A stretch of 24,000 bases of DNA from an uncultured Gammaproteobacteria bacterium (GTDB lineage Bacteria; Pseudomonadota; Gammaproteobacteria; Thiohalobacterales; Thiohalobacteraceae). The translations under genes were made by a program, and so were the position numbers. Positions 778 through 22,623 of the stretch are shown here, piece by piece (within the stretch, counting starts at the first letter, position 1; the number at the start of each line of letters is the position of its first letter). The notes below the pieces were generated by a model. The model was not told the DNA's origin, did no database searches, and saw nothing but the letters and a program-made list of their open reading frames with translations. The stretch lies in assembly GCA_963737555.1 (NCBI GenBank), contig CAVTTB010000008.1:341632-365631 (forward strand). Direction: 5' to 3'.

Positions 778-829
778 ATCGAATATCTAATCTAAGCGAA
801 TATATTTCTGGAAGAGAGGAGTCAGCACG

Positions 830-1501
830 ATGGACGCACTATGGGCAACCAATATCACCTGGCACGAAGGGCACGTCAAACGCGAGGATCGCGAGCAACT
901 GCTCGCCCAGACCGGCGCGACCGTCTGGTTCACCGGACTCAGCGGCTCCGGCAAGAGCACCATCGCCTTCACGCTCGAACACGCGTTGATCGAACGCGGT
1001 CGTCTGGCCTATGTGCTCGACGGCGACAATATCCGTCACGGCCTGAACAAGAACCTGGGCTTCAGCGCCGTCGATCGCGAAGAGAATATCCGTCGCATCG
1101 GCGAAGTCGCCAGACTGTTCGCGGATACCGGCGTGATCGCACTCACCAGCTTCATCAGCCCGTACCGCCAGGACCGCGATCTGGTGCGCCAGATGCATCG
1201 GCAGGACGGACTGCCCTTCATCGAAGTGCTGGTCGATGTCCCCATCGAGATCTGCGAAACGCGCGATCCCAAAGGCTTGTACAAAAAGGCGCGCGCCGCC
1301 TTGGCCGAAGGCAAGGGTATGGGCTTCACCGGCGTGGACGATCCGTACGAGCAGCCGCTGTCGGCCGAGATCGTCATCCGCAATGATCGGACCACGCCTC
1401 AGGAGGCCGCCGCGCAAGTGATCGCGTATATGGAGTCGCGGGGCATGTTGCCCGCCGTGTCGCGCGGCTTGGATACACCCAGAAGACACCAGAGCGTGTA
1501 G
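830..1501 (+). CDS. cysC: Adenylyl-sulfate (APS) kinase
   Basis: 223-aa ORF with P-loop GLSGSGKST and the motifs YVLDGDNIRHGLNKNLGFS, DREENIRRIGEVA, ISPYRQDR and DPKGLYKKAR. GAGGAG Shine-Dalgarno sequence a few nt upstream of the ATG. Confidence 0.93.
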   Translation: MDALWATNITWHEGHVKREDREQLLAQTGATVWFTGLSGSGKSTIAFTLEHALIERGRLAYVLDGDNIRHGLNKNLGFSAVDREENIRRIGEVARLFADTGVIALTSFISPYRQDRDLVRQMHRQDGLPFIEVLVDVPIEICETRDPKGLYKKARAALAEGKGMGFTGVDDPYEQPLSAEIVIRNDRTTPQEAAAQVIAYMESRGMLPAVSRGLDTPRRHQSV

Positions 1502-1683: not shown

Positions 1684-2839
1684 ATGTATTCCAACAGTAT
1701 CAATACGCGTTCCATGCTCGCCGATTATCATATCGAGGGCATGATGCTGCGTTATAGCGTATTCATCCCCAAACTCTATAACTTCTGTAAGTCGCTCGGT
1801 TTCGAGCCGGGGCGCATCATGCCGTCGCGCGCCTTCTGTTCCGATGAAAGTCAGGGCTTCCCGATCATCCTGATCACCAAGCACTTTGGAACCTTCCCGT
1901 TCAATCATGGCCAAGTGGGTGGCGTCATCGCCACCGATCGTCACGGTCCGCATGCGGAACATGGCAAGGATATGGTGATCATCCAGGCCAGCCATGTCGG
2001 CTATGATCCGGAAACGAAAACCTTCGGCACTTATCGGCGTCTGCAATGCGAGCAACATGATATGTCCGCCAATTGCGGCAAGATCGTGGCCGTGTTGGAC
2101 TGGTACCAGCAGGAGTATCGCTTCGCGCAGGAAAATATTTATCTTGAATCCCATGACGGGGGGTTCTATCTGATCATCGACAATCAGCTGCTCAACAATT
2201 CCCGACCCGAAGGTCTGTTCCTGAATATCGAGCGCATGGTGCAGCCGGACCTGGACGGCACCTTGCGCCCGACGCAATCCTTCAGCACCTCCAAATGCTA
2301 TCCCGCGTCCACTCAATTGAAGGAGCTGTTCGGCGTGGATGCCTGGCAGAAAAATGCCCGCACGGAGATCGGCGCGCATTTGCTGCCGGAGTTGTTCTGG
2401 TTCAAGCGTGAAGTAACGGGTGACGAGGAGGGCAAGGAACATCTGGAGCGTAATCTTCTCAAGCCGATGCCGTGGATCGTGACATCCGTTGCGCCGTTGC
2501 TGACGGCGGCTCAGGTCAATACGCAGGTCGAGTTCGATCGCACCTTCCGCACCATCGTCAAAGACCACAGTTATCGCGGCAAGAACGTGGTCTATCTGGC
2601 CGGACTCAATATCGACATCTCGCCGCAGCCCGGTCAATTGTTTCCGCTTGACCAAGTTCGTGCCGTGGGCGGCCTATATACAAGAGGCCAATGGCCACCA
2701 TTACACGCTGGAACAGGCGGAGCTGATGGACCGGCTCAAGGCGCAGAGCGACGAAAATCCTGATCAGATCGATCTGGAAAAGGCCATTACCGAAATGCGC
2801 CTGGCCGAGGAGATTCGCATCGCGCTGGCAGCGCCTTAG
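1684..2839 (+). CDS. LCIB-family-like / beta-carbonic-anhydrase-fold candidate protein (~384 aa). Apparent +1 frameshift near nt 2640-2651.
   Basis: ORF 1684..2763 continues in the next frame as ORF 2648..2839: ...ISPQPGQLFPL|TKFVPWAAYIQEANGHHYTLEQAELMDRL...AAP*. The candidate Zn site is FCSDESQG (Cys52-x-Asp54, nt 1837-1845), ASHVGYD (His104, nt 1993-1995) and ANCGK (Cys131, nt 2074-2076). This order and spacing match what I recall for the Cys/His/Cys site of LCIB-family proteins. The family assignment is from memory and has not been searched. Confidence 0.55.
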
Positions 2840-2860
2840 GCGCGTATGCGGTGCGTCCGT

Positions 2861-2908
2861 GTTCGAGATGTTGCGCATTGCATCTGTTCGCGATGTTGCG
2901 CATTGCAT
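2861..2908. repeat. Tandem direct repeat, 2 x 23 bp with 1 mismatch, in the spacer between the LCIB-like gene and the hyfB-like gene.
   Basis: GTTCGAGATGTTGCGCATTGCAT (2861-2883), ct, GTTCGCGATGTTGCGCATTGCAT (2886-2908), followed by a T6 run. Each unit contains the TGCGCA palindrome. Confidence 0.85.
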
Positions 2909-3033
2909 TTTTTAGCGATCCTGCGAGGGGTGATCTGAATAGACTGATGTGGCATAAATCCGTACAATCGCGGCTTCATCGCGTGTCCCCAGAAGTCAAT
3001 AATATCTTACCAAATTATCATCAGGATAATTAC

Positions 3034-5058
3034 GTGCCGCTGGCCTTAGTCGAATTTGCCGTTGCCGCCGCGCTCTGCTCCGGGCTGCTCGCGCTGGTCC
3101 TGTACCGGTTCACCTCATTACAAAAGTATGTTGCCTTCGGCTTGCTTGGCATCTCGGGTTTGTCTGCCCTGCTCGGCGGCATTCAGGTCCTGCTCGCCAA
3201 ATCGGTGCTGGTCGATGTCCTCATGATCGGTCTGCCGTGGCTGCACTGGCATCTGCGGCTGGATCCGCTGTCCGGTTTTTTCCTCGCCATCATCGGCATC
3301 GTCACGGTGGCCGTGTCCATCTATGGTCCCGCCTATGTGCGTGAATATGAGCACGGCAAACAGCCGCTGGCGGTACTGTCTTTGTTCACCGGGTTGTTTA
3401 TCGCCGGCATGATGCTGGTGGTGTTGGCCGATGACGCGTACGCGTTCATGGTCGCCTGGGAATTGATGTCGCTGTCGAGTTACTTCCTGGTGTCCTATCA
3501 ACACCAGCACGCGGCCAACCGGCGTGCTGCCTACCTTTATCTATTGATGGCGCATGTCGGCGGGCTGACCATCATGCTCGGTTTCGGCGTGTTGGCGGCC
3601 TTCGGCGGCGGCTTGACCTTCGACATCATGCGCAGCGCCGAGCTGTCGCTGTTCTGGTCCTCGACGGCTTTCTGTCTGGCGTTGTTCGGTTTCGGCATGA
3701 AGGCGGGGCTGGTGCCGGTGCACGCGTGGCTGCCCGAGGCGCACCCGGTCGCGCCCTCGCATATCTCGGCGTTGATGAGTGGCGTGATGTTGAAGATCGC
3801 CCTCTATGGTCTGATCCGGTTTAGCTACGATCTGATCGGCGAGGTCCACTGGGGCTGGGGCTTCGGCATGCTGATGCTGGGCGTGGCCTCCGGTCTGCTG
3901 GGCGTGCTGTACGCGATTGTGCAGACCGATCTGAAGCGGCTGCTGGCCTATTCGTCGGTGGAAAATATCGGCATCATTTTTATCGGCCTGGGCCTGTCGA
4001 TGATTTTCGTCGGCTCTGGCCACCAGGAACTGGGTGCGCTGGGCCTGATTGCATCCCTCTATCACATTCTCAATCACGCCTTGTTCAAGAGCCTGTTGTT
4101 CCTCGGCGCGGGTGCCGTGTTGCAAAGCACCCATGAAGGCAATCTGGAACAGATGGGCGGGCTGATTCATCGCATGCCGGTCACGGCCGTGTTGTTCCTG
4201 GTGGGGTGTATCAGTATCGCGGGCCTGCCGCCGTTCAATGGCTTCGTCTCCGAATGGCTGAGTTTCCAGACGGCACTTCAGGCGCCGATTCTGCAAGATG
4301 GCGTGTTGCGCGCCTTCATCCCGGTGGCTGCCGCAGCCTTGGCCTTGACCGGTGCGTTGGCGGCAGCGGCGTTCGTGAAGACCTTCGGCGTGGCATTCCT
4401 GGGTGTGGCGCGCAGCCGGCATGCGCGTCAGGCGCACGAGGTTGCGCGCAGCATGCAGGTCGGCATGGGACTGTTGGCGGCGCTGTGTCTGCTGTTCGGT
4501 ATCTTCCCCACGACCACCATCGGCGTGATCGATGCCATCCCAGAGTTGTTATTCAATAAGGGTCTGCCCAGCGCGTCCGCCGAAGGCTGGCTGTGGCTGA
4601 CGCCGATCGCACCGGAAGTTTCTTCCTACTCCGCACCGTTGGTCTTGATCGGTATCGCCCTGGCGTGGGGGCTCGGTTATGCGTTGCTGCACCCGCGTCG
4701 ACGCGAGCACCCGGTGCGGCGCAGCGCGCCTTGGGATTGCGGCTTCGGTCCGGTCAACCCGCGCATGCAATACACCTCGACCGCGTTCTCGATGCCGATT
4801 CGACGCATCTTCAAGCCGGTCTGGGATGTGCAAGAGCCGGTCGAGGAAACCCGCGATGCCAAACAGCCGCTGTTGCTGACCGGCATCCGCCACCAGATGC
4901 AGATCGGTGATCGCTCCTGGCCGGTCCTGTATGAACCTATTGCCCATTGGGTGCTGGTCGCGGCGCGCAAGATCGGCGGCATCCAGACCGGCAGTATCCG
5001 TACCTATCTGGCCTATTCGTTCTTCACGTTGCTGGTGTTGTTATGGCTGATTACCTAA
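3034..5058 (+). CDS. hyfB: Hydrogenase-4 subunit B-like, NuoL/antiporter-like membrane subunit (Ehr-type complex)
   Basis: 674 aa from GTG 3034, with AGGA 7 nt upstream. The ORF-track start at 2851 would translate the tandem repeat. Motifs: WELMSLSSYFLV, GLVPVHAWLPEAHPVAPSHISALMSGVMLKIALYG, LLAYSSVENIGII and a C-terminal PWDCGFG domain. The length matches HyfB-type proteins. Confidence 0.88.
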   Translation: MPLALVEFAVAAALCSGLLALVLYRFTSLQKYVAFGLLGISGLSALLGGIQVLLAKSVLVDVLMIGLPWLHWHLRLDPLSGFFLAIIGIVTVAVSIYGPAYVREYEHGKQPLAVLSLFTGLFIAGMMLVVLADDAYAFMVAWELMSLSSYFLVSYQHQHAANRRAAYLYLLMAHVGGLTIMLGFGVLAAFGGGLTFDIMRSAELSLFWSSTAFCLALFGFGMKAGLVPVHAWLPEAHPVAPSHISALMSGVMLKIALYGLIRFSYDLIGEVHWGWGFGMLMLGVASGLLGVLYAIVQTDLKRLLAYSSVENIGIIFIGLGLSMIFVGSGHQELGALGLIASLYHILNHALFKSLLFLGAGAVLQSTHEGNLEQMGGLIHRMPVTAVLFLVGCISIAGLPPFNGFVSEWLSFQTALQAPILQDGVLRAFIPVAAAALALTGALAAAAFVKTFGVAFLGVARSRHARQAHEVARSMQVGMGLLAALCLLFGIFPTTTIGVIDAIPELLFNKGLPSASAEGWLWLTPIAPEVSSYSAPLVLIGIALAWGLGYALLHPRRREHPVRRSAPWDCGFGPVNPRMQYTSTAFSMPIRRIFKPVWDVQEPVEETRDAKQPLLLTGIRHQMQIGDRSWPVLYEPIAHWVLVAARKIGGIQTGSIRTYLAYSFFTLLVLLWLIT

Positions 5059-5999
5059 ACGCCTGGCTGCTGGCGCTGTTGCAGACGCTGCTGTTCGTCG
5101 CCAGCGCACCGTTGCTGGCGGGTTGGATCAAGGTCGTCAAATGCCGCTTGCAGAACCGCACGGCGCCGTCGCTGTTGCAGCCGTATGCGGATCTGCGCAA
5201 GCTGTTCTCGAAGAATCTGGTGATGGCCGAAAACGCCTCGTGGATCTTCCGCGCCGCCCCCTATATTTTGCTGGGTTCGACCATTCTCGCCGCGGCGGTG
5301 GTCCCGTTGGTCGCCGTGCGACTGCCGACGGCGGCGATCGCCGACGTGATCGTGCTGGTCGGTTTTTTTGCGTTGGGGCGTTTCTTTCTGGCCCTGGCCG
5401 CGATGGATATCGGCACCGCCTTCGGCGGCATGGGCTCGTCGCGTGATATGACCGTCGCCTCGCTGGCGGAGCCGGCGATGCTGATGGCGGTGTTTACCCT
5501 GGCCATGACCGCGAACAGCACCAATCTGTCGACCGCCGTGCAGTTCACGCTGGAAAGTGGTTTGGTGTTGCGACCGTCCTTCATCTTCATCACTGTTGGA
5601 TTGATGATGGTAGCAGTGGCGGAGACCGGCCGTATCCCGATCGACAACCCGACCACCCATCTCGAATTGACCATGCTGCACGAGGCGATGATCCTCGAAT
5701 ACAGCGCCCGTCACTTGGCCTTGATCGAGTGGGCGGCGCAGATCAAGTTCATGGTCTTCGGTGTGTTGATCGCCAATATCTTCCTGCCCTGGGGCATTGC
5801 CACCGAATTCACGCCGCTGGCGCTGGCAACCGGCGCCTTCGCGATTGCACTGAAACTGCTGGTGCTGGTGGTCATACTGGCCATCTCCGAGACCATCGTC
5901 GCCAAGATGCGCCTGTTCAAAGCGCCTGAATATCTCAACATCGCCTATCTGCTGTGCCTGCTCGGCATGCTCAGCCACGTGATTCTGGAAGTGGGTTGA
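5043..5999 (+). CDS. hyfC: HyfC/HycD-like, NuoH-like membrane subunit
   Basis: 318 aa from ATG 5043, overlapping the hyfB stop. Motifs: LLQPYADLRKLF and ETGRIPIDNPTTHLELTMLHEAMILEYS (NuoH/HycD signature). Multi-TM. Confidence 0.88.
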   Translation: MADYLNAWLLALLQTLLFVASAPLLAGWIKVVKCRLQNRTAPSLLQPYADLRKLFSKNLVMAENASWIFRAAPYILLGSTILAAAVVPLVAVRLPTAAIADVIVLVGFFALGRFFLALAAMDIGTAFGGMGSSRDMTVASLAEPAMLMAVFTLAMTANSTNLSTAVQFTLESGLVLRPSFIFITVGLMMVAVAETGRIPIDNPTTHLELTMLHEAMILEYSARHLALIEWAAQIKFMVFGVLIANIFLPWGIATEFTPLALATGAFAIALKLLVLVVILAISETIVAKMRLFKAPEYLNIAYLLCLLGMLSHVILEVG

Positions 6000-6047
6000 G
6001 ACGATGATGCGTATGCAACCGGTCAGATCAGTAAGGCATAACCGTTC

Positions 6048-6728
6048 ATGAATAGCTTCGCGAATCTTAGCCTGTACGAACAGGCCATCATGATGCTGTC
6101 GGCCTTGGTGCTGTTCACCTCGTTCGCACTGCTGGCGCAGTCGCGCATGCTCAATATGATCAATGTGTTCGCTTGGCAGGGCGTGCTGCTGTCGGCCACC
6201 ACGGCGTTGGTCGCCTTGGTCTCCGGCCAGCATCATCTGTATACCTCCGCGCTGCTCACCATGGTGCTCAAGGCCATGTTGATCCCTTATATACTGCGCC
6301 ATCTCGTCATCCGTCTGGACATACACAGGGAAGTGGAGTCGGTGGTGCGCCCGGCCGTGGTGCTCATGTCCGGGGCCTCGCTGGTGGTGTTTTCCTACTG
6401 GGTCGCCTTGCCGATCGTACATTTGTCCACACTCATCACCCGCAACACGATCGCCGTGAGCATCGCCATCGTGCTGTTGGGCATGTTGATGATCATTACC
6501 CGCAGCAAGGCGGTCTCGCAGGTGGTGGGTTTCATGTCCATGGAGAACGGCCTGTTCTTCGCCGCGGTGGTGTCCACCTACGGCATGCCGATGGTGGTTG
6601 AGCTGGGCGTTGCGTTCGACGTGCTGGTGGCCGCCATTCTGTTCGGTGTGTTCTTCTTCCAAATCCGCGCCTCGATCGACTCACTGGACGTGGACCGTCT
6701 CAATCGCCTGACGGAGACGGATAAGTGA
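6048..6728 (+). CDS. hyfE: Hydrogenase-4 component E-like membrane subunit
   Basis: 226 aa, multi-TM. The C-terminal part, VVGFMSMENGLFFAAVV...VELGVAFDVLVAAILFGVFF...LDVDRLNRLTE, parallels E. coli HyfE (…LMENG…VEIGIATD…LDVNNLTALKG). Confidence 0.85.
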   Translation: MNSFANLSLYEQAIMMLSALVLFTSFALLAQSRMLNMINVFAWQGVLLSATTALVALVSGQHHLYTSALLTMVLKAMLIPYILRHLVIRLDIHREVESVVRPAVVLMSGASLVVFSYWVALPIVHLSTLITRNTIAVSIAIVLLGMLMIITRSKAVSQVVGFMSMENGLFFAAVVSTYGMPMVVELGVAFDVLVAAILFGVFFFQIRASIDSLDVDRLNRLTETDK

Positions 6729-8194
6729 ATTTTGCCTTGGAATTTATGCTGGGGTTGCCGCTGTTCGGCGCCATCCTGCTGGGCGCGTTGGGCCACAGCC
6801 GTAAGGCCGGCTGGATAAATATTGGTTTCTGCGCCGCGAGCTTTGTCGCAACCGTGCTGCTGGCCTTGGATGTGCTGGATCATGGCCCGCAGTTATTTCA
6901 TGATCGGCTGTTCTATGTCGACGCCTTCAACGTCTACCTGCTGGTGTTGACCGCGTTTGTCGGCATGACCACGGCGATTTTTTCGCGCCCGTACATGGAA
7001 CATGAGAAACAACGTGGTCGCCTGAACAACCGACGCATGCAGTTGTATCACTCGATGTACCAGGGCTTTCTGTTCGCCATGCTGTTGTGCTTGTCCACCA
7101 ACAATCTGGGCTTGCTGTGGGTGGCGATGGAGGGTGCGACCCTCGCCACGGTGTTATTGGTATCGCTGTACCGCACCCCCGAGGCGGTCGAGGCGGCGTG
7201 GAAATATTTTATCCTCTGCGGCGTCGGTATCGCCCAGGCGCTGTTCGGCACGGTGCTGTTGTTCTTCGCCGCCGAGCGCATCATCGAGCATCGCGACGAC
7301 GCCCTGCTGTGGAATGTATTGCACGAGAATGCGCACCTGATGGACCCGACGGTATTGTCGCTGGCGTTCGTGTTCCTGCTGGTGGGTTACGGTACCAAGG
7401 TGGGTCTGGTGCCCTTGCACAACTGGTTGCCGGATGCGCATTCCGAAGGTCCGACACCGATGTCGGCGGTGCTGTCGGGTCTGCTGTTGAACGTCGCCCT
7501 GTATGCCTTGGTGCGGGTGAAGATGTTGGTCGATGGTTCCTTGGATACCGAACTGGCCGGCCAGCTGATGATGGGTTTCGGCATGGCGTCGTTCCTGGTC
7601 GCGAGTCTGTTCTTGCATCGGCAACGCGACATCAAACGCATGTTCAGTTACTCCTCCATTGAACACATGGGACTGATGACCTTTGCCTTCGGCCTCGGCG
7701 GTCCACTGGCGACCTTCGGCGCGCTGTTGCACATGACCGTGCATTCGCTGACCAAGTCGGCGATCTTCGTCACCGTCGGTCATGCCGCACATATCGCCGG
7801 TACGCAATCCATCGAGAAGATTCGCGGTCTGATCCACACGCAGCCCACGGTCGGCTGGGGCCTGTTGATCGGCACCACGGCCATCGCCGGCTTTCCACCC
7901 TTCGGACTTTTCACCAGCGAGTTCCTGTTGCTCACCGCGACCATGAAGAGCTGGCCCTGGCTGACCTTGCCCCTGCTGGTCGGCCTGGTGGTTGCCTTTG
8001 CCGGCCTGTTCCGGCATCTGCATCCGATGGTTTATGGTGACAAGCCGGAAGGTCAGCTGGCCGTCAAAGCCAATATGTGGCCGGTGGCGATCCACCTGGC
8101 GCTGGTGTTGTGGCTGGGCCTGTCGATTCCTGAGTTCTTATCGCGCTGGTTTGATCAGGCAACGCTGTTGATCTCCGGCAGTTCATGGTTGTGA
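6725..8194 (+). CDS. hyfF: Hydrogenase-4 subunit F-like, NuoN/NuoM antiporter-like membrane subunit
   Basis: 489 aa. GTG 6725 overlaps the hyfE stop. Motifs: GTKVGLVPLHNWLPDAHSEGPTPMSAVLSGLLLNVALYAL, MFSYSSIEHMG and IAGFPPFGLFTSEF. Confidence 0.88.
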   Translation: MNFALEFMLGLPLFGAILLGALGHSRKAGWINIGFCAASFVATVLLALDVLDHGPQLFHDRLFYVDAFNVYLLVLTAFVGMTTAIFSRPYMEHEKQRGRLNNRRMQLYHSMYQGFLFAMLLCLSTNNLGLLWVAMEGATLATVLLVSLYRTPEAVEAAWKYFILCGVGIAQALFGTVLLFFAAERIIEHRDDALLWNVLHENAHLMDPTVLSLAFVFLLVGYGTKVGLVPLHNWLPDAHSEGPTPMSAVLSGLLLNVALYALVRVKMLVDGSLDTELAGQLMMGFGMASFLVASLFLHRQRDIKRMFSYSSIEHMGLMTFAFGLGGPLATFGALLHMTVHSLTKSAIFVTVGHAAHIAGTQSIEKIRGLIHTQPTVGWGLLIGTTAIAGFPPFGLFTSEFLLLTATMKSWPWLTLPLLVGLVVAFAGLFRHLHPMVYGDKPEGQLAVKANMWPVAIHLALVLWLGLSIPEFLSRWFDQATLLISGSSWL

Positions 8195-9814
8195 GCATGG
8201 AAACTGAAACCACGAGCATCGCAGCGCCGTTCGCCTGGCTGCCCAAGTTCCGGGAAACGCTGCAGAGCGAACACGTGCTGCTGCACCCCGACGCGGAGCA
8301 GACGCTCCATCCGGCGCGCACCATGGCCGCCGATCACGAAGACTGGGGGCGCATCGCGCAACAGGCGGCGAAATTCAAATTACGCTGGTGTGCCGGCTGG
8401 GCACAGGATGTGGGTGAGCAGATCCAGATCAACACCTGCTTCGTCTATCAGGGCGATTATCTGGTGCTGCGCACGGCTGTCGACAAGTCTACGTCGATTA
8501 TGCCCTCACAGACACCGGCCTACATCGCGGCGGACCGGCCCGAGCGGCATATGCAGGATATGTTCGGCATCGTCTTTACCGATCACCCGGACAGCCGCCG
8601 TTGGACGCGACACATGGCCTGGGGCGACGGCGATTTTCCGCTGCGCAAGAGTTTCCCGGTTGCAGGTCATCCGCCGGCGATCACCCCGCCCAACAATGAA
8701 TATAAATTCCTGACAGCACAGGGTCCGGGCGTATACGAGATTCCGGTCGGGCCGGTGCATGCCGGCATCATCGAACCCGGACACTTCCGCTTTCAGGCCG
8801 TCGGCGAGACGGTGCTGAATCTGGAAGAACATCTCGGCTATGTGCACAAGGGCATCGAGAAGATCGCCGAAGGGCGCGATCCCGCGGGGCTTGCGCGTCT
8901 GGCCGGTCGTGTCTCCGGTGATACCACGGTCGCGCACACCTGGGCCGCCTGCATGGCGATGGAGCGCGCCGCCGGCATCGAAGTGCCGCCGCGTGCGTTG
9001 CTGCTGCGCGCGGTGATGGCCGAGAGTGAACGCATCGTCAATCACCTGTGGGATCTCGCCATGGTGTGCAACGATGTGGCGTTCGCCTTTCCGTTTTATC
9101 AATTCAGTCGCCTGCGCGAGCAATGGCTGCGCGTGTTGGCGGCCGGCTTTGGTCACCGTCTGATGATGGACCGCATCGTGCCTGGTGGTGTCGCGACCGA
9201 TATCACGGCGGCGGCGGCCGAGCAACTGAATACGCTGTGTGTCGAGGTCCGCAAGGAGCTCGACGGCATGATGCACGTCTTCGACGACAACGCCTCGTTC
9301 CAGGATCGCGTGGTCACCACCGGCATCCTCAGTCCGGAATTGGCGCAGCTCTACGGCACTGTCGGTTATGTCGGCAAGGCCAGCGGCCTGTGTTTCGACG
9401 TGCGTCAGGATGCGCCTTATTCACCCTATGATCGCTTCAAAGTTGTAGCCCCGTGTTACAGCGCACGGCGATGTCGATGCTCGTGTCAGGGTGCGCATCG
9501 ATGAGATCAATGCCTCATCAGAGCTGTTGCAGCGCTTGTTGAACGAGCGGGGCCTGACCGCGGATACGCTTGCCGCGCCTTGGTCCGCGCCGGCAGACGG
9601 AGCGGAAGGTGTCGGCATGGTCGACGGTTGGCGCGGCGAGATTTTCGCCTATGTGAGTTTCGCGGCCGACAATCGCATTGCGCGTTTTTTCCCGCGCGAT
9701 CCGAGCTGGACCACCTGGCCGGCGTTGGAAAAACTCATTCGCGGCAATATCGTGCCGGACTTTCCGGTGTGCAATAAATCCGTCAACGGTTCGTATTCCG
9801 GTCATGATCTTTAA
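8185..9814 (+). CDS. NuoC-NuoD-like 'large subunit' homologous to HyfG/HycE but lacking all four NiFe cysteine ligands (Ehr-type, non-hydrogenase). Apparent +1 frameshift in the C-run at 9449-9452.
   Basis: Conserved core motifs: VGPVHAGIIEPGHFRF and EEHLGYVHKGIEK. The L1 site reads RVSGDTTVAH (nt 8908-8937) where RxCGxCxxxH is expected. The C-terminal site reads NGSYSGHDL* (nt 9785-9814) where DPCxxCxDR is expected. ORF 8185..9504 continues as ORF 9491..9814 one frame over: ...PYDRFKVVA|RVTAHGDVDARVRVRIDEINASSELL... ATG 8197 is an alternative start. Confidence 0.85.
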
Positions 9815-9893
9815 TACACTTTTATCCAGCCGAGGACGTGCAGTCGGCGGCTTGAATGCCGCGGACTCGCAGCTGCATGCACAAGGTCATCCC

Positions 9894-10403
9894 ATGCTGA
9901 GAATCCTCAATAAGATCCTCAAGACTGGCAACCTCACCGAGGCCCTGCCCGAAGACGAGCGCAAGGTACTCGAAGAGATCGGTGCGCAGGTCAAGGCCGG
10001 CATCGGCAAACGCTTTGCCGGCAGTCTGGCGATCCGCGCCGTGGATGCCGGTTCCTGCAACGGCTGCGAACTGGAAATTCACGCGCTCAACAATGCCATC
10101 TACAATCTGGAACGCTTCGGTATTCACTTCGTTGCCTCGCCGCGGCATGCCGATATGCTGTTGGTGACCGGTCCCGTGTCGCGGCATATGCAGACCGCGT
10201 TGATCCGCACCTACGAGGCCACGCCCGAACCCAAGCTGGTGATCGCCGTCGGTGAGTGCGGTGCCAATGGCGGCGAATTCGGCGTGAGCTATGCCTCCTG
10301 CGGTGCCGTGAGCAATGTCATCCCCGTCGATGCTGTCATCCGTGGCTGCCCACCCACCCCGTTAGACCTGATGCGCGGCATCCTGCAGGCCATCGGCGAC
10401 TGA
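9894..10403 (+). CDS. NuoB/HycG/HyfI-like small subunit with intact [4Fe-4S] ligand set
   Basis: 169 aa from ATG 9894. The ORF-track start at 9678 overlaps the large-subunit 3' end. Motifs: GSCNGCELE, VASPRHADMLLVTGPVS, VAVGECG and IRGCPPTP. Confidence 0.88.
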   Translation: MLRILNKILKTGNLTEALPEDERKVLEEIGAQVKAGIGKRFAGSLAIRAVDAGSCNGCELEIHALNNAIYNLERFGIHFVASPRHADMLLVTGPVSRHMQTALIRTYEATPEPKLVIAVGECGANGGEFGVSYASCGAVSNVIPVDAVIRGCPPTPLDLMRGILQAIGD

Positions 10404-10625: not shown

Positions 10626-11078
10626 TCAATCTCCAGTCTGGTGCAGGCATTTTTCGATCACGTGCTGCAAATCATCCAACACGGAACCCATGATGAGGCC
10701 GGCGCAGTGATGGTATAAAGAAAGCTCGCACGTGATCGGCTCATATAAATTATCACGTCCGTGAATTTGGAAATCTCGCCAAGCAAGTACTAACTGATCA
10801 TCTGCACAGCTATCGATGCAGAACCAAGCCTCATCGTACAAAATAATATCCAGGCCGCGATGTTGTTCCATGCTTAGACGCAATGGATTCTCCAGCCGCA
10901 ATAAGGCCAGGCGCACTCGGTTATAACATGCTGCTTCGATGTGCTTTGGCACACTTCGTAATGGCAATGTATCCAAGGTAGGCTTCATGTATTTACCGCA
11001 TCTGGACCATGATTGAAATATTGATTTCCTCAGTCGCGTTGGTAAGCGTGGTGCGAGTGTTGATCTTTGGTATGCCAT
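10626..11078 (-). CDS. Hypothetical protein (120-150 aa) immediately downstream of cbbX, with low G+C
   Basis: 150-aa ORF starting 5 nt after the cbbX stop, with an alternative start at ATG 10988 (MKPTLDTLPL...). I recognise no family. A hand count over 10621-10860 gives about 47% G+C, against about 58-67% in the flanking lines I counted. Confidence 0.45.
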   Translation of the reverse strand: MAYQRSTLAPRLPTRLRKSIFQSWSRCGKYMKPTLDTLPLRSVPKHIEAACYNRVRLALLRLENPLRLSMEQHRGLDIILYDEAWFCIDSCADDQLVLAWRDFQIHGRDNLYEPITCELSLYHHCAGLIMGSVLDDLQHVIEKCLHQTGD

Positions 11079-11082
11079 GCCC

Positions 11083-12018
11083 TCAACTATCTTCGCTATC
11101 GAGTTTGCCTTCTATAAAAACCCGGCTGGCCAGAATATCTTCGGCTTCGATGGTCATCAGGTCGACTTTGCTAAGTGATTTTTGTGCGTTGGCAAAGAGT
11201 CGATTGGCCTGACGCAGACGCGCGCGATCCAGAGCATTGCGCACCGAGCGCGCGTTGGCGAAATGTGCCAGCTTCATGCGTAGCGTGATGTACTCGAAGA
11301 AGGCCTTTTCAGCATCGGGGCTGAAGCGATAGTTTTGCGCCGCCAACATCAGCCTGGCGATGTGCAGCAATTCTTCTGCGCTGTAATCTGGGAAATCGAT
11401 GTGGTGCGCGATGCGCGAGCGCATACCGGGATTGCTGTGGAAGAATTTGTCCATGCGATCTTTGTAACCGGCCAGAATCACCACCAGATCGTCGCGGTTG
11501 TTTTCCATGACCTGGAGTAGAATCTCGATCGACTCGGCACCGTAGTCGCGCTCGTTTTCGGGCTTATAGAGATAATAGGCTTCGTCGATGAACAGCACGC
11601 CACCCATGGCTTTCTTGATCACTTCCTTGGTTTTCGGCGCGGTGTGGCCGATGTATTGGCCCACCAGATCGTCACGCGTGACGGAGACCAGATGGCCTTC
11701 GCGCACATAGCCCAGACGATGCAGGATCTCGGCCATACGCATGGCTACAGTGGTCTTGCCGGTACCGGGGTTGCCGGTAAAATTCATATGCAGTGTCGGT
11801 GTCTCGGAGGTCAGCGCAAATTGCTTGCGCAGACGATCCACCAATAGCAGAGCCGCAATTTCCCGAATACGGGTTTTGACGGGCACTAAGCCAATCAATT
11901 CGCGGTCGAGTTTGTCGAGAACTTCTTTTACATTCGAGGCTTCAAATTCGGTTTCAAGATTGACAGGGGTATCATCCGCCAAGATGGCATCACCCTGTGG
12001 GTTTTCTGAATTATTCAT
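11083..12018 (-). CDS. cbbX: CbbX, AAA+ red-type RuBisCO activase
   Basis: 311 aa from ATG 12018 (MNNSENPQ...). Motifs: Walker [75 protein letters not shown] and [17 protein letters not shown]. Confidence 0.93.
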
Positions 12019-12102: not shown

Positions 12103-12537
12103 TCAGTAACGCTCGCCTTCCGATTTGTCAGTAGCATAGGAGTGGATGCTGTAACGCATAGTGCGCCCCTCAGTTTCCTGACGCACCAGGCCAAAGCCCG
12201 GCTCCTTCTTGGGCCGATTGACAAGGTACGACATGCACACGCTCTCTACACCGCGCACAGCGCTGAATGCGCTGACACGGATGTAATGATTCGGGAATGT
12301 CTTACGACAATTGTTTACTTCCAGCAGGATTCCGGCTGGATCTTTAAGATCGAACATCGGATTGCCAAACATTTCCCAATAGGTGTTGCGTGGGTGCGGG
12401 TCGTCGGTGTATTCGACGCTCAGCGCCCAGCCCTTGCCCAGTGCATATTTGATTTGCGCAGTGATTTGCACATCGGTCAGATCAGGCAGAAAGGAAAACT
12501 GTCCTTGGGTAATGCGATTGCCGAGATTGGTCATCAT
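12103..12537 (-). CDS. cbbS: RuBisCO small subunit (red-type, with C-terminal extension)
   Basis: 144 aa. Motifs: [50 protein letters not shown] and [13 protein letters not shown] ribosome-binding site upstream. Lies 20 nt after the cbbL stop. Confidence 0.95.
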
Positions 12538-12557: not shown

Positions 12558-14223
<1,666 letters not shown>

Positions 14224-15213
14224 ATGCGCCATTCTACATTCCGCCAATTAGAGGTCTTTGAGGCCCTTGCCCGCCTCGGCAGTTTCACGCGCGCGGCAGA
14301 GGAGCTGTTCCTCACTCAGCCTACCGCGAGCATGCAGATCAAGAAGCTCACCGATACGGTAGGTCTGCCGCTCTACGAACAAATCGGTAAACGAATTTTT
14401 CTTACCGATGCCGGCCGGGCGTTGCATGCCACCTGTCGTGAGATCTTCGGTGCCCTGGACAGTTTCGAAATGCAGGCCGCTGATATGAAGGGATTGAAAC
14501 AGGGTAAGCTGCGGCTGTCGGTCGTCAGTACGGCAAAGTATTTTGCGCCACGCCTGCTGGGTAGTTTCTGCTTGAAATATCCCGGTATTGAGGTGTCGCT
14601 CAAAGTGAGCAACCGCGAACGGATTCTGGAACGACTGAACGACAATCAGGACGATCTGTATATTCTGGGGCTACCGCCGGACGGTCTGGATGCGATCGCC
14701 GAACCGTTCATGGAAAATTTGCTGGTTGTGTTGGCGCCCATTCATCATCCGCTGGCCGGCGAACGCAACATTACGCTGGCACGCATCGCCAAGGAGCCGT
14801 TCCTCGTTCGTGAACCCGGTTCCGGTACACGGATAGCGGTGGAGCGCCTGTTCAAGGAACAAGGGTTGTCCATCAATGTGCGCATGGAGCTCGGCAGTAA
14901 CGAAGCGATCAAACAGTCCATCGTCGGCGGTTTAGGCATTTCTGTGTTGTCGCGACACACGCTGGCACTGGATGCCGCGATGGGACAACTTACGATTCTC
15001 GATGTGCAAAATTTTCCAATCAAACGCCAGTGGCATGTTGCCTATCCCACAGGCAAGCAACTGACCACCGTTGCCCAGACCTTTCTTGAGTATCTGCGCC
15101 ATGCAGCAGAGGTGGTGCAGGACATTCCCTGCCACCATGCCGAACAGGCCGGCGGCTGCCCGTTGATCACGATACCGGTTAAAACCGCTAAACGTAAGTC
15201 GCGCGGTAATTAG
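14224..15213 (+). CDS. cbbR: LysR-family transcriptional regulator CbbR (RuBisCO operon activator)
   Basis: 329 aa. N-terminal helix-turn-helix FRQLEVFEALARLGSFTRAAEELFLTQPTASMQIKKLTDTVGLPLYEQIGKRIFLTDAG. Divergent from cbbL. Confidence 0.88.
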   Translation: MRHSTFRQLEVFEALARLGSFTRAAEELFLTQPTASMQIKKLTDTVGLPLYEQIGKRIFLTDAGRALHATCREIFGALDSFEMQAADMKGLKQGKLRLSVVSTAKYFAPRLLGSFCLKYPGIEVSLKVSNRERILERLNDNQDDLYILGLPPDGLDAIAEPFMENLLVVLAPIHHPLAGERNITLARIAKEPFLVREPGSGTRIAVERLFKEQGLSINVRMELGSNEAIKQSIVGGLGISVLSRHTLALDAAMGQLTILDVQNFPIKRQWHVAYPTGKQLTTVAQTFLEYLRHAAEVVQDIPCHHAEQAGGCPLITIPVKTAKRKSRGN

Positions 15214-15591: not shown

Positions 15592-16503
15592 ATGAATATT
15601 ACCCTCCGTCAATTGAACATCTTCGAAGCCGTCGCGCGGCACCTGAATTTCACCAAAGCGGCCGAGGAACTGCATCTGACCCAGCCGGCCGTGTCCATGC
15701 AGATAAAACAGTTGGAACAGGCTATCGAGCTGCCGTTGTTCGATCAGGTCGGCAAGCGGATTTCGCTGACCGAGGCCGGCGAGGAATTGCAACGCTACAG
15801 CCGACAGATATCCACGCTGTTACTGGAAGCCGAGCAGGTCATTGCGGAATTGAAAGGCATCCAGCGCGGTCGCTTGAACATCACCGTGGCGAGCACCGCG
15901 AATTATTTCGTGCCGCGTTTGTGGGCGACTTTTCGAATGCAGCATCCCGGGGTCATGGTCAGTCTCAACGTGACCAACCGTGAAGGACTGATTCGCGCGT
16001 TGGCCGAGAATGAGGCCGATCTGGTGATCATGGGACAGCCACCGGAAGATATGGACTTGGTGGCCGAATCCTTCATGCCCAATCCGTTGGTGGTGATCGC
16101 GCCGCCCAGTCACCCCTTGTGCGATGCGCGTCATATTCCCCTGCAGCGCATGAAGGCGGAAACCTTTCTGGTGCGCGAACAAGGTTCCGGCACGCGCTCG
16201 CTGATGGAGCGGGTGTTTGCGGAGAAGGGTTTGGAGCCCTCGACGCCGATCGAAATGAGCAGCACCGAGGCGATCAAACAGGGTGTAGAGGCGGGTTTGG
16301 GGTTGGCGCTGTTGTCCGTGCATACCTTAGAAATGGAATTGGCGTTGAAGCGTCTCGTGGTGCTGGATGTTGATGGTTTTCCGGTGCTGCGCGATTGGTA
16401 CATCGTACACCGCGCCGGCAAGCGCTTGTCCGCGGTCGCGCAGGCGTTCCGCGATTTCATGCTGCAAGAGACGCCCGCCATCGTGCATGTACCCGAGGTT
16501 TAA
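15592..16503 (+). CDS. Second LysR-family regulator, CbbR paralog
   Basis: 303 aa. LRQLNIFEAVARHLNFTKAAEELHLTQPAVSMQIKQLEQAIELPLFDQVGKRISLTEAG. Collinear similarity to the upstream CbbR along its whole length (e.g. FLVREQGSGTR, EAIKQGVEAGLG). Confidence 0.85.
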   Translation: MNITLRQLNIFEAVARHLNFTKAAEELHLTQPAVSMQIKQLEQAIELPLFDQVGKRISLTEAGEELQRYSRQISTLLLEAEQVIAELKGIQRGRLNITVASTANYFVPRLWATFRMQHPGVMVSLNVTNREGLIRALAENEADLVIMGQPPEDMDLVAESFMPNPLVVIAPPSHPLCDARHIPLQRMKAETFLVREQGSGTRSLMERVFAEKGLEPSTPIEMSSTEAIKQGVEAGLGLALLSVHTLEMELALKRLVVLDVDGFPVLRDWYIVHRAGKRLSAVAQAFRDFMLQETPAIVHVPEV

Positions 16504-19359: not shown

Positions 19360-19436
19360 GTTCGTGGTGCCCTTGTAGACGGACCCAAAACCCGGGAAAC
19401 GCCGCATTCTAACAGATTGGGATCGGGGGCCAGCAT

Positions 19437-22613: not shown

Positions 22614-22623
22614 GGAGAGCATC

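What the first reader, a model, noticed from the sequence alone, without database searches (positions are those of the whole stretch)
1684..10403. Candidate undescribed inorganic-carbon system: LCIB-like carbonic-anhydrase-fold protein plus a NiFe-less, complex-I-like (Ehr-type) membrane complex, beside RuBisCO and two CbbR regulators
Seen in the sequence: seven same-strand genes. The first encodes a soluble ~384-aa protein with a Cys-x-Asp ... His ... Cys arrangement. The other six encode two antiporter-like proton-pumping-type subunits (NuoL-like, NuoN-like), a NuoH-like subunit, HyfE, a NuoCD-like subunit without a NiFe site, and a NuoB-like subunit. The block is convergent on cbbL-cbbS-cbbX, and two LysR/CbbR-type regulators lie just beyond the RuBisCO operon. 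Established knowledge: both known vectorial CO2-hydration systems pair a CA-like protein with complex-I antiporter-like subunits. These are cyanobacterial NDH-1 with CupA/CupB on NdhD3/F3 or NdhD4/F4, and DabA/DabB in chemoautotrophs. Hydrogenase-related complexes that have lost the NiFe site (described in the literature as Ehr, energy-converting hydrogenase-related) have no assigned function. Inference: this locus may be a third solution, in which an Ehr-type module energises CO2-to-bicarbonate conversion by the LCIB-like protein to feed the adjacent RuBisCO. Caveats: the CA assignment is from memory of the family. A 194-bp spacer containing a tandem repeat separates the CA-like gene from the six-gene block, so co-transcription is unproven. 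No carboxysome genes are in the window, and a red-type form I RuBisCO is not normally carboxysomal.
Basis: partly seen in the sequence, partly recalled or inferred. Interest (0 to 1): 0.88.

Follow-up and report, generated by a model that had tools for sequence, protein, structure and literature searches.

The report
LCIB-like carbonic anhydrase beside Ehr complex
Next to its RuBisCO genes, this bacterium carries an uncharacterised relative of the algal LCIB carbonic anhydrases and a nickel-free, complex-I-like membrane complex (Ehr) of unknown function. Comparison with other genomes links both to inorganic-carbon and anion uptake, but does not show that they form a single CO2-pumping machine.

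Summary
Seven same-strand genes lie at 1684-10403, convergent on cbbL-cbbS-cbbX, with two CbbR-type regulators beyond. Two of the seven carry single frameshifts in this assembly.

Gene 1 is a distant LCIB-family member:
- Pfam PF18599 scores 25.2 bits against a cut-off of 25.
- The eight best Foldseek PDB hits are all LCIB, LCIC or PtLCIB4.
- C52, D54, H104 and C131 are invariant in 31 homologues.

The other six genes are a textbook ehrABCDLS cluster. It lacks the NiFe cysteines and keeps the small-subunit FeS cysteines.

The proposed CA-Ehr machine is only partly supported.
- For: the two are adjacent in three phyla with different gene orders (this gammaproteobacterial lineage, Nitrospirales, one Desulfobacterales MAG).
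- For: in Nitrospirales the gene follows ehrS by 40 bp and is followed by a canonical LCIB gene.
- Against: none of 42 informative loci of the closest Ehr relatives carries it or RuBisCO. Six carry a SulP transporter instead.
- Against: only 5 of 80 species loci of the CA-like gene have an Ehr-type cluster. SulP, CitMHS, DAB, Mrp, CbbR and RuBisCO are its other neighbours.

Best reading: a free LCIB-type carbonic anhydrase from the inorganic-carbon toolkit, next to an Ehr module linked to anion or bicarbonate uptake. A dedicated vectorial complex remains possible (about 0.2).

The parts
1684..2839 (+). CA-like gene ('CAL'): a 384-aa LCIB-family (theta/beta-CA fold) protein with a C52-S53-D54 ... 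H104 ... C131 motif. The frame is broken by a 1-bp insertion near 2640-2650 in this assembly.
   Evidence: Pfam PF18599 scores 25.2 bits against a cut-off of 25. Foldseek's top 8 PDB hits are all LCIB-family, E 1e-6 to 1e-3. The motif residues are invariant in 31 homologues. The gene is intact in the 96%-identical L172.
2840..3033 (+). Spacer between CAL and ehrA. It holds a 25-bp tandem repeat (2860-2919), a terminator-like hairpin with a T-run (2890-2906) and a sigma-70-like site (2940-2968).
   Evidence: The repeat segment is not conserved in the 96%-identical relative L172.
3034..5058 (+). ehrA: HyfB/NuoL-like antiporter-like subunit, 674 aa.
   Evidence: PF00361 at 195 bits; NF005086 at 844 bits. 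It keeps the GxKxGxxPxHxWLPxAH and HxxxKS motifs.
5055..5999 (+). ehrB: HyfC/NuoH-like subunit.
   Evidence: PF00146 at 125 bits.
6048..6728 (+). ehrC: HyfE-like membrane subunit.
   Evidence: NF008556 at 86 bits; PF00420 weak.
6725..8194 (+). ehrD: HyfF/NuoN/M-like antiporter-like subunit, 489 aa.
   Evidence: PF00361 at 182 bits; NF005045 at 778 bits. The Lys/His motifs are retained.
8185..9814 (+). ehrL: fused NuoC/NuoD-like large subunit without NiFe ligands. It has a frameshift in a C-run near 9455 in this assembly.
   Evidence: PF00329, PF00346 and the N-terminal part of PF00374. The motif RVSGDTTVAH / DFPVCNKSVNGSYSGHDL is shared by 80 of 80 relatives.
9894..10403 (+). ehrS: NuoB-like small subunit with C55, C58, C122 and C152 (CxxC...C...CPP).
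   Evidence: PF01058 at 102 bits. Cysteine positions.
10626..11078 (-). orf150: unannotated 150-aa ORF at the end of the cbb operon.
   Evidence: No Pfam hit. ORF listed.
11083..12018 (-). cbbX: red-type RuBisCO activase.
   Evidence: TIGR02880 at 535 bits, cut-off 459.
12103..12537 (-). cbbS: RuBisCO small subunit.
   Evidence: An exact-sequence cluster is named ribulose-bisphosphate carboxylase small chain.
12558..14033 (-). cbbL: form I RuBisCO large subunit.
   Evidence: NF003252 at 762 bits.
14224..15213 (+). cbbR1: LysR/CbbR-type regulator, divergent from cbbL.
   Evidence: The best NCBIfam hit is CbbR at 246 bits, below its equivalog cut-off. A cluster member is named low CO2-responsive regulator.
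15592..16503 (+). cbbR2: second LysR/CbbR-type regulator, 48% identical to cbbR1.

Best explanation
The region is a genuine inorganic-carbon and energy gene island made of two separable units next to a red-type, CbbX-dependent, apparently non-carboxysomal RuBisCO operon and two CbbR regulators.

Unit 1 is a cytoplasmic zinc enzyme of the LCIB family, a long bacterial/algal subfamily of about 380 aa. Most likely it acts as a free, reversible carbonic anhydrase. It would equilibrate CO2 and bicarbonate for RuBisCO and for bicarbonate-using carboxylases, working with whichever inorganic-carbon transporter a genome has.

Unit 2 is an ehrABCDLS complex. It has a NuoB-type FeS subunit, a NiFe-less NuoCD-like subunit, and NuoH-, HyfE- and two NuoL/N-like ion-translocating subunits. 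It has no NuoI/HyfH-like or other electron-input subunit encoded in the cluster.

Its most likely role here is ion translocation (H+ or Na+) tied to the uptake of an inorganic anion, probably bicarbonate. In the closest relatives the slot next to ehrA holds a SulP transporter. In this lineage it holds the CA-like gene.

The two units are therefore linked at the level of the pathway, not necessarily as one holoenzyme.

Shown here: gene content, fold, conserved residues, loss of the NiFe site, and the neighbourhood statistics.

Inferred, not shown: CA activity, the ion pumped, bicarbonate as the SulP substrate, and regulation by CbbR.
For: The CA-like protein belongs to the LCIB family:
- Pfam PF18599 scores 25.2 bits against a cut-off of 25, covering residues 27-145.
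- The AF2 model has pTM 0.81. Its eight best PDB matches are all LCIB, LCIC, PtLCIB4 or 6kfs, with E down to 1e-6 and TM about 0.7 normalised by target. The next hit has E 0.2.
- C52, D54, H104 and C131 are invariant in 31 homologues.
- C52 and H104 align with the Cys and His of a canonical 241-aa bacterial LCIB.
- Algal members exist in Paulinella, Polarella and Hemiselmis.

Neighbours of the CA-like gene in 80 species loci:
- Genes within 3 kb of it, counted over all loci: SulP 12, CitMHS/DASS 7, RuBisCO L 5, LysR/CbbR 5.
- DabA in 4 loci within 10 kb.
- PF00361 proteins in 11 loci within 10 kb.
- Any of the tested families in 30 of 80 loci.
- A recurrent cbbL <- -> cbbR -> CA-like arrangement in L003, L028, L051, L076 and L171.

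Such varied partners fit a free enzyme.

Ehr side:
- The six-gene order is conserved in the metagenome loci that span the cluster, and all 80 lack the NiFe cysteines.
- A single coherent SulP clade (52-93% identical) sits directly upstream of ehrA in L083, L085, L086 and L089, and inside the operon in L084. L148 has a more distant SulP (23-27% identical to that clade) immediately after ehrS.

Links between Ehr and the CA-like gene:
- This window and L172.
- L169: CA-like - Na/H exchanger - ehrA - ehrB.
- Nitrospirales L045: ehrL - ehrS - 40 bp - CA-like - canonical LCIB. L031, L038 and L040 also include SulP.
- Desulfobacterales L077.

Precedent: a CO2-responsive bicA-nhaS3 operon pairs a SulP transporter with a cation/proton antiporter under a LysR regulator (PMC4419860).
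Against: - No SulP, DAB or other recognised inorganic-carbon transporter lies in this window. The bicarbonate-uptake partner for Ehr is therefore missing locally.
- Most Ehr loci have neither SulP nor the CA-like gene. 36 of the 42 informative loci lack SulP and all 42 lack the CA-like gene.
- Ehr also occurs in Geobacter, where it is more abundant on formate (PMC7894505). A redox role is plausible.
- The substrate of the Ehr-linked SulP clade is unknown.
- The LCIB assignment rests on a threshold-level Pfam score and a model with low confidence around residues 52-55 and 73-92.
- Chlamydomonas LCIB/LCIC itself lacks CA activity in vitro (my recollection of Jin et al. 2016; that paper is not held).
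- Very high conservation of the CA-like protein across phyla (57-72% identity) could reflect binding partners.
Confidence: 0.45

Rival explanations
1. The CA-like protein docks on an antiporter-like subunit of Ehr (EhrA or EhrD). Ehr then removes the proton released by CO2 hydration, driven by PMF or by an unknown redox donor. This would make a third type of vectorial (one-way) carbonic anhydrase, analogous to CupA on NDH-1MS and to DabA/DabB.
For: - Adjacency on the same strand here and in L172.
- Adjacency in L169.
- A 40-bp gap after ehrS in Nitrospirales L045, with a second, canonical LCIB gene downstream that recalls the LCIB/LCIC pair.
- Adjacency in L077.
- The window's EhrL is closer to Ehrs with no adjacent CA-like gene (up to 61% identity) than to the Nitrospirales Ehr (38%). 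Juxtaposition therefore arose more than once.
- The CA-like gene also sits beside other complex-I/Mrp-type modules: DAB in 4 loci and Mrp-like clusters in about 6.
- Both antiporter-like subunits keep their conserved Lys/His motifs.
- The CA-like protein is unusually conserved.
- Both known vectorial CAs use a beta-CA-like or CA-like subunit on a PF00361 subunit (PMC13144422).
Against: - None of 42 informative loci of the nearest Ehr relatives has the CA-like gene.
- About 70 of 80 CA-like loci have no Ehr, and about 50 have none of the tested partner or inorganic-carbon gene families within 10 kb.
- Where the CA-like gene is next to DAB, DabA already supplies the CA subunit.
- A terminator-like and a promoter-like site separate the CA-like gene from ehrA.
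- There are no carboxysome genes here. A one-way bicarbonate pump would not feed a cytosolic RuBisCO unless a second CA is present.
- No interaction data exist, and multimer modelling was not possible with these tools.
Confidence: 0.2
2. The adjacency has no functional meaning. Ehr is a redox-driven or ion-homeostasis complex unrelated to carbon, for example ferredoxin-, formate- or quinone-linked as proposed for other Ehr complexes. It merely lies between a stand-alone carbonic anhydrase gene and the cbb operon.
For: - Neither Ehr nor the CA-like gene usually has the other as a neighbour.
- Ehr is found in non-CBB organisms. In Geobacter it responds to formate, and an FDH-Ehr complex has been hypothesised in Margulisbacteria.
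- The spacer may carry its own terminator and promoter.
- The genes flanking Ehr are otherwise unconserved.
Against: - Adjacency recurs in three phyla with three different gene orders.
- SulP transporters are frequent neighbours of both Ehr and the CA-like gene, though of different SulP clades.
- By rough genome-average expectation (my estimate), finding Ehr within 10 kb of a given gene in 5 of 80 species is far above chance. Four of those five loci are from one order, however.
Confidence: 0.25
3. The CA-like protein is not a carbonic anhydrase. It would use the beta-CA/LCIB fold for another small-molecule reaction such as COS or CS2 hydrolysis, or for a sulfur-related role. The SulP ('sulfate permease') neighbours and the upstream cysC and TauE-like genes would suggest this.
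For: - cysC (830-1501) and a TauE-like gene lie immediately upstream.
- SulP is the commonest neighbour.
- MsrA is a neighbour in 7 loci.
- Beta-CA-fold COS and CS2 hydrolases exist (my knowledge).
- The match to LCIB is remote, at 12-13% identity.
Against: - Repeated linkage to RuBisCO, CbbR, CbbO and DabA.
- Homologues in photosynthetic eukaryotes, one of which UniRef names an LCIB-domain protein.
- A canonical LCIB paralogue lies next to it in Nitrospirales.
- The Cys/Asp/His/Cys set is the CA-type zinc site.
Confidence: 0.07

Closest known systems
LCIB/LCIC of Chlamydomonas and PtLCIB3/4 of Phaeodactylum (theta-CA; structurally a beta-CA subgroup; Pfam PF18599)
   Same: Same fold: the eight best PDB matches belong to this family. 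There is a Pfam hit at threshold. The Cys-x-Asp ... His ... Cys arrangement is conserved. The family is associated with autotrophy and CO2 limitation. In Nitrospirales a long and a short paralogue lie side by side, which recalls the LCIB/LCIC pair.
   Different: Only 12-13% identity. About 140 extra residues (384 aa against a core of about 225-240 aa). No profile-level sequence hit to the PDB chains. It forms its own tight subfamily, named 'hypothetical protein' wherever a source names it in the listing. Activity is untested.
Ehr complex (EhrA, B, C, D, L, S) of Geobacter sulfurreducens GSU0739-45 and of Nitrospira, as defined for energy-converting hydrogenase-related complexes
   Same: Same six subunit types, matching the subunit names given for Geobacter (EhrA NuoL-like, EhrC HyfE-like, EhrL large, EhrS small). 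No NiFe CxxC motifs. The NuoB-type cluster cysteines are retained. No function is assigned.
   Different: Here and in a few lineages it lies next to an LCIB-like gene and RuBisCO. In the nearest relatives it lies next to a specific SulP clade. I found neither association described in the literature.
DAB (DabA/DabB; MpsAB), the PMF-driven vectorial carbonic anhydrase
   Same: A beta-CA-fold protein gene next to a PF00361 antiporter-like subunit gene, in chemolithoautotrophs, near RuBisCO. The CA-like gene is itself a neighbour of dabAB in 4 loci.
   Different: The CA-like protein has no DabA (PF10070) similarity and no transmembrane helix is evident. The partner would be a six-subunit complex with an FeS subunit, not a single DabB. 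The linkage is facultative, whereas dabA-dabB is obligate.
Cyanobacterial NDH-1MS / NDH-1MS' (CupA/CupS or CupB on NdhD3/F3 or NdhD4/F4)
   Same: A complex-I-type membrane arm plus NuoB/D/H-type subunits with a peripheral CO2-hydrating protein.
   Different: The CA-like protein shows no ChpXY/CupA Pfam hit. Ehr lacks the NdhI/NuoI-type ferredoxin-accepting subunit and has only two antiporter-like subunits. The electron donor is unknown.
E. coli hydrogenase-4 (hyfABCDEFGHIJR-focB), group 4 [NiFe]-hydrogenases
   Same: HyfB, C, E, F, G and I are the best-scoring NCBIfam families for the six genes. The hyf operon also carries an anion channel gene, focB (my knowledge), a parallel to SulP in ehr operons.
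   Different: No NiFe ligands. No HyfA, D or H in the cluster, and no hyp maturation genes in the window. It is not a hydrogenase.
bicA-nhaS3 type operons of cyanobacteria
   Same: A SulP bicarbonate transporter co-transcribed with a cation/proton antiporter, controlled by a LysR regulator and low CO2 (PMC4419860). This resembles SulP-ehr, and the CA-like - Na/H exchanger - ehr arrangement of L169.
   Different: The antiporter there is a single CPA-type protein, not a complex-I-like assembly. No CA gene is in that operon.

Membership tests
LCIB family (PF18599, theta/beta-CA) | Significant match to the family profile | tested here: met
   PF18599 scores 25.2 bits against a gathering cut-off of 25, E 1.1e-5. 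Only residues 27-145 match profile positions 7-126 of 223. The precomputed PF18599 flag appears on about half of the listed homologues. This is a borderline pass.
LCIB family (PF18599, theta/beta-CA) | LCIB-type fold | tested here: met
   AF2 model: pLDDT 78, pTM 0.81. Foldseek against the PDB: ranks 1-8 are all LCIB, LCIC, PtLCIB4 or 6kfs, E 1.3e-6 to 1.2e-3, TM normalised by target 0.55-0.73. Rank 9 has E 0.2.
LCIB family (PF18599, theta/beta-CA) | Zinc ligands Cys, His, Cys plus the catalytic Asp after the first Cys | tested here: inconclusive
   C52, D54, H104 and C131 are invariant in 31 sequences. C52 and H104 align to the Cys and His of a canonical LCIB, but that alignment is weak (E 0.14) and stops before C131. 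The model is low-confidence at residues 52-55. No metal or geometry test was possible.
LCIB family (PF18599, theta/beta-CA) | Carbonic anhydrase activity | not testable with these tools
   Needs an enzyme assay or complementation.
Ehr (energy-converting hydrogenase-related complex) | Group-4-hydrogenase/complex-I-type subunit set: NuoL/N-like, NuoH-like, HyfE-like, NuoCD-like and NuoB-like | tested here: met
   Pfam and NCBIfam hits for all six genes. The same six-gene order occurs in the related loci that span the cluster.
Ehr (energy-converting hydrogenase-related complex) | Large subunit lacks the two CxxC NiFe-binding motifs | tested here: met
   RVSGDTTVAH and DFPVCNKSVNGSYSGHDL are found instead. 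The same replacements occur in 80 of 80 (N-terminal motif) and 77 of 77 (C-terminal motif) relatives.
Ehr (energy-converting hydrogenase-related complex) | Small subunit keeps the cysteines of the proximal [4Fe-4S] cluster | tested here: met
   C55, C58, C122 and C152 in the CxxC ... GxC ... GCPP context.
Group 4 [NiFe]-hydrogenase (Hyf/Hyc type) | NiFe-ligating cysteines in the large subunit | tested here: not met
   One of the four cysteines remains. It is not a hydrogenase.
Vectorial carbonic anhydrases (DAB; NDH-1MS/CupA) | CA-like subunit homologous to DabA or CupA/ChpX | tested here: not met
   The Pfam scan of the CA-like protein returns only LCIB_C_CA, with no DabA or ChpXY hit at E <= 0.01.
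Vectorial carbonic anhydrases (DAB; NDH-1MS/CupA) | Obligate genetic linkage of the CA-like gene with its antiporter-like partner | tested here: not met
   None of 42 informative Ehr loci has the CA-like gene. 11 of 80 CA-like loci have any PF00361 gene within 10 kb, and 5 have an Ehr-type cluster.
Vectorial carbonic anhydrases (DAB; NDH-1MS/CupA) | Physical attachment of the CA-like subunit to a PF00361 subunit, and energy-coupled one-way CO2 hydration | not testable with these tools
   No multimer prediction or biochemistry was available.

The most novel reading that the evidence does not exclude
Ehr complexes, orphan relatives of complex I for over a decade, are energy-coupling modules for inorganic-carbon acquisition. 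In some lineages they would work with a SulP bicarbonate transporter. In this lineage, Nitrospirales and one Desulfobacterales MAG they would work with a long-form LCIB-type carbonic anhydrase bound to an antiporter-like subunit. That would be a third, independently evolved vectorial CO2-hydration machine, found in autotrophs that use different carbon-fixation pathways.
Probability: 0.2. Interest if true: 0.88.

Novelty: new variant of a known kind. Interest (0 to 1): 0.6.

Why it matters
Three points make this worth following up.

1. The work defines a large, tightly conserved and uncharacterised LCIB-like family. It has more than 2,600 database proteins and is present in at least 537 GTDB species, plus dinoflagellate, cryptophyte and Paulinella homologues. 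Its gene neighbours are RuBisCO, CbbR, DAB, SulP and other anion transporters. It is therefore a strong candidate for a missing carbonic anhydrase in the inorganic-carbon toolkits of chemolithoautotrophs.

2. It gives the orphan Ehr complex its first concrete, testable functional context. The recurrent partners are a SulP transporter clade, once encoded inside the operon, and LCIB-type proteins.

3. If the holoenzyme version were true, it would be a third solution to energised CO2 capture. That would matter for the evolution of complex I, for carbon budgets of nitrite and sulfur oxidisers, and for engineering CO2-concentrating mechanisms.

Tried and rejected
- A profile search of the CA-like alignment against PDB sequences found no LCIB chain, only a spurious hexon hit at E 0.45. 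The relationship is visible only through Pfam and fold comparison.
- hhalign of the CA-like profile against one canonical bacterial LCIB was weak (E 0.14, 85 columns). I used it only for residue correspondence.
- NCBIfam has no model for the CA-like protein.
- The primary LCIB structure paper (PMC5187666) is not held. The ligand numbering of PtLCIB4 could not be checked and is not relied on.
- Literature searches for any Ehr/LCIB/CO2 link returned nothing relevant. PMC7895386 reports enrichment of true hydrogenases in CBB genomes, not of Ehr.
- Single-linkage clustering of ORFs in the Ehr loci merged everything into one cluster because of fused ORFs. I replaced it with phmmer family scans.
- Pseudogenisation of the locus is considered unlikely. 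Housekeeping genes in the window (sufB) also carry frameshifts, one shift lies in a C homopolymer, and a 96%-identical relative has the intact frame.
- L064 (Sedimenticola endophacoides) was first counted as an Ehr case. It has a different NuoD-like cluster on the opposite strand, so I do not count it.

Full report
**1. What is in the window**

On the + strand:
- a 384-aa soluble protein (1684-2839), here called CAL
- a HyfB/NuoL-like subunit (3034-5058)
- a NuoH-like subunit (5055-5999)
- a HyfE-like subunit (6048-6728)
- a HyfF/NuoN-like subunit (6725-8194)
- a fused NuoC/NuoD-like subunit (8185-9814)
- a NuoB-like subunit (9894-10403)

On the minus strand, convergent with these:
- cbbL (12558-14033), cbbS and cbbX (TIGR02880, 535 bits)
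- an unannotated orf150

Two CbbR-type LysR genes follow at 14224-15213 and 15592-16503.

Two of the seven genes are broken by one frameshift each. CAL is broken near 2640-2650.

The corrected CAL is 99% identical over its full length to a database protein. A 96%-identical contig from another sample has the intact frame, and the window carries one extra base relative to it.

sufB and a TauE-like gene in the window are also frameshifted. The window comes from a 594-kb contig. I therefore treat the frameshifts as probable assembly indels, but this is not proven.

**2. The CA-like protein is a remote LCIB-family member**

- Pfam gives PF18599 (LCIB_C_CA) at 25.2 bits, just above the cut-off of 25, over residues 27-145 only. 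NCBIfam has nothing.
- An AlphaFold2 model built on 31 homologues has pTM 0.81. It is weak around residues 52-55 and 73-92.
- Its eight best Foldseek matches in the PDB are all LCIB-family structures: 6kfs, PtLCIB4, LCIB and LCIC. E-values run from 1e-6 to 1e-3 and TM is about 0.7 per target length. The next hit has E 0.2.
- C52, D54, H104 and C131 are invariant in the alignment, as are H87, H90 and H93.
- In a weak profile alignment, C52 and H104 fall on the Cys and His of a canonical 241-aa bacterial LCIB.

The family is large and tight:
- 2,610 database proteins, nearly all 57-72% identical, and named 'hypothetical protein' wherever a source names them in the listing
- at least 537 GTDB species, mostly Gammaproteobacteria (Competibacteraceae, Thiogranum, Sedimenticola, Thiohalomonadaceae), plus Nitrospirales and Nitrospina

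An exhaustive profile search adds more divergent members with N-terminal extensions. Some of these come from Paulinella micropora, the dinoflagellate Polarella glacialis (named by UniRef as an LCIB-domain protein) and the cryptophyte Hemiselmis.

A family shared by chemolithoautotrophs and algae fits a role in carbon acquisition.

**3. The six-gene block is an Ehr complex**

The subunit set matches the EhrA-D, EhrL and EhrS nomenclature used for Geobacter sulfurreducens GSU0739-45.

- The large subunit has RVSGDTTVAH where hydrogenases have RxCGxCxxxH.
- It has DFPVCNKSVNGSYSGHDL where they have DPCxxCxxR.
- All 80 nearest metagenomic relatives share these replacements.
- The small subunit keeps the four cluster cysteines. 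Both antiporter-like subunits keep the conserved Lys/His motifs.
- No NuoI/HyfH-type subunit or other electron-input subunit is encoded in the cluster.

The papers I could read state that Ehr function is unknown. They speculate about formate- or ferredoxin-linked roles.

**4. Are the two units linked?**

*Survey from the CAL side.* I examined 80 species loci with flanks of up to 10 kb.

The neighbourhood is variable, but it is enriched for inorganic-carbon and ion-transport genes.

| Neighbour | Count |
|---|---|
| SulP transporters | 12 genes within 3 kb |
| CitMHS/DASS transporters | 7 genes within 3 kb |
| RuBisCO large subunit | 5 genes within 3 kb |
| CbbR-type regulators | 5 genes within 3 kb |
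| DabA | 4 loci within 10 kb |
| PF00361 proteins | 11 loci within 10 kb |
| Any of the tested families | 30 of 80 loci (22 of 53 loci of at least 10 kb) |

- The PF00361 neighbours are DabB, Mrp-type clusters confirmed by Pfam, or Ehr.
- The arrangement cbbL <- -> cbbR -> CAL recurs in L003, L028, L051, L076 and L171.
- Ehr-type clusters accompany CAL in four Nitrospirales loci and one Desulfobacterales locus.
- In L045 the order is ehrL - ehrS - 40 bp - CAL, followed by a canonical LCIB gene (PF18599, 119 bits).
- In L038 and L040 the order is ehr - periplasmic protein - SulP - CAL.
- Among closer relatives, L172 (96% nt identity) keeps CAL then ehrA. L169 (72% aa identity) has CAL - Na/H exchanger - ehrA - ehrB.
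- Two other relatives place CAL after argF, or after cbbR, with no Ehr.

*Survey from the Ehr side.* I examined 80 metagenome loci with EhrL 41-61% identical to the window's.

- The six-gene order is conserved wherever the contig spans the cluster.
- None of the 42 loci with informative flanks carries CAL or RuBisCO.
- Five carry a SulP transporter of one coherent clade (52-93% identical). In L083, L085, L086 and L089 it sits directly upstream of ehrA, the position CAL occupies here. In L084 it sits inside the operon, between ehrD and ehrL.
- A sixth locus, L148, has a more distant SulP (23-27% identical to that clade) immediately after ehrS.

**5. Interpretation**

The three associations form a triangle: Ehr with SulP, CAL with SulP, and Ehr with CAL.

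The Ehr-CAL edge arose more than once. The window's EhrL is closer to Ehrs without an adjacent CAL than to the Nitrospirales Ehr, and the gene order differs between lineages. This argues that Ehr has something to do with the uptake of an inorganic anion, most plausibly bicarbonate/CO2.

There is a precedent in cyanobacterial bicA-nhaS3 operons. These pair a SulP bicarbonate transporter with a cation/proton antiporter under a LysR regulator.

CAL's varied partners (SulP, CitMHS, DAB, Mrp, Ehr, or simply cbbR-cbbL) are what one expects of a free cytoplasmic carbonic anhydrase. They are not what one expects of a dedicated subunit.

The absence of CAL from the nearest Ehr loci shows that Ehr does not need it.

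In this window a terminator-like hairpin (2890-2906) and a promoter-like site (2940-2968) lie between CAL and ehrA. They sit within a spacer whose 25-bp repeat is not conserved in the close relative.

On physiological grounds, a one-way CO2-to-bicarbonate pump would not by itself feed a red-type RuBisCO without carboxysomes. A reversible CA would.

My ranking is therefore:
- pathway-level association, best explanation (0.45)
- coincidental adjacency (0.25)
- CAL-Ehr holoenzyme acting as a vectorial carbonic anhydrase (0.2)
- a non-CA chemistry for CAL (0.07)

**6. Comparison with known systems, and novelty**

- CAL passes the fold and profile tests for the LCIB family, the profile one only barely. 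It is a distinct, longer subfamily with no tested activity.
- The membrane block passes every test for Ehr and fails the defining test for a [NiFe]-hydrogenase.
- The pair is not a member of the DAB or CupA/NDH-1MS families. There is no DabA or ChpXY homology and no obligate linkage.
- Whether it works like them could not be tested.
- I found no paper that links Ehr to LCIB-type proteins, SulP or CO2.

I rate the finding as a new variant of a known kind, with interest 0.6. It is clearly above ordinary because it gives an orphan complex-I relative and a large unannotated CA-like family a shared hypothesis that can be tested directly.

Noticed in passing
L083 2725-4704; L085 2653-4338; L086 1152-4524; L089 123-1412; L084 about 8230-9900: One coherent SulP/STAS transporter clade (52-93% identical) lies directly upstream of ehrA in four metagenome loci. 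In L084 it is encoded inside the ehr operon, between ehrD and ehrL. I found no description of an Ehr-SulP association.
   Followed up: partly
L045 3765-4490; L031 7966-8685: In Nitrospirales the long CA-like gene is immediately followed by a canonical short LCIB gene (241 aa, PF18599 at 119 bits). Both lie downstream of ehrS. The long/short paralogue pair recalls algal LCIB/LCIC.
   Followed up: partly
L051 175-7586; L035 1-8572; also L025, L034, L063, L080: Mrp-type antiporter clusters (MrpE, F, G, B, C plus three MrpD-like genes) lie next to cbbR and the CA-like gene, or next to DabA. In L035 dabA sits within the run MrpD x3 - DabA - DabB, which suggests Mrp/DAB hybrids.
   Followed up: partly
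L025, L053, L057, L068, L070, L077, L079 (within 3 kb of the CA-like gene): CitMHS/DASS-type anion transporters are recurrent neighbours of the CA-like gene. As far as I know this family is not among the described inorganic-carbon transporters.
   Followed up: no
P0186, P0200, P0205 (and probably P0192, P0194, P0208, P0213): The CA-like family has eukaryotic members with N-terminal extensions in Paulinella micropora, Polarella glacialis and Hemiselmis tepida. P0181 is a bacterial member that carries about 110 extra C-terminal residues resembling a response-regulator receiver domain (not profile-tested).
   Followed up: partly
window 90-989; 2640-2650; about 9455; 21158-22696 and 21849-22613; 17689-19407: There are several frameshifts in 24 kb: the TauE-like gene, the CA-like gene, ehrL and sufB, and an apparent purE-purK fusion ORF. 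Together with the 594-kb source contig, this suggests uncorrected long-read indel errors rather than gene decay.
   Followed up: partly
window 10626-11078 (minus strand): orf150 follows cbbX at the end of the cbb operon. It has no Pfam hit, and its conservation was not examined.
   Followed up: no
L161-L166 and L171 (downstream of the CA-like gene): In several relatives the CA-like gene is followed by a radical-SAM gene and two peptidase-U32 genes, and in some it is preceded by argD-argF (ornithine carbamoyltransferase). The meaning is unknown.
   Followed up: no
window 2860-2919: A 25-bp tandem repeat (2.0-2.4 copies) overlaps a terminator-like hairpin. The segment is replaced by a shorter, unalignable stretch in the 96%-identical relative L172.
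   Followed up: partly
window 8185-9814 and L081-L160: The former NiFe pocket of EhrL carries its own strongly conserved motifs: R-[VI]-S-G-D-[ST]-T-V-A-[HYF] and D-F-P-x-x-N-K-S-x-N-x-S-Y-S-G-x-D-L. This suggests a conserved new site rather than simple decay.
   Followed up: partly
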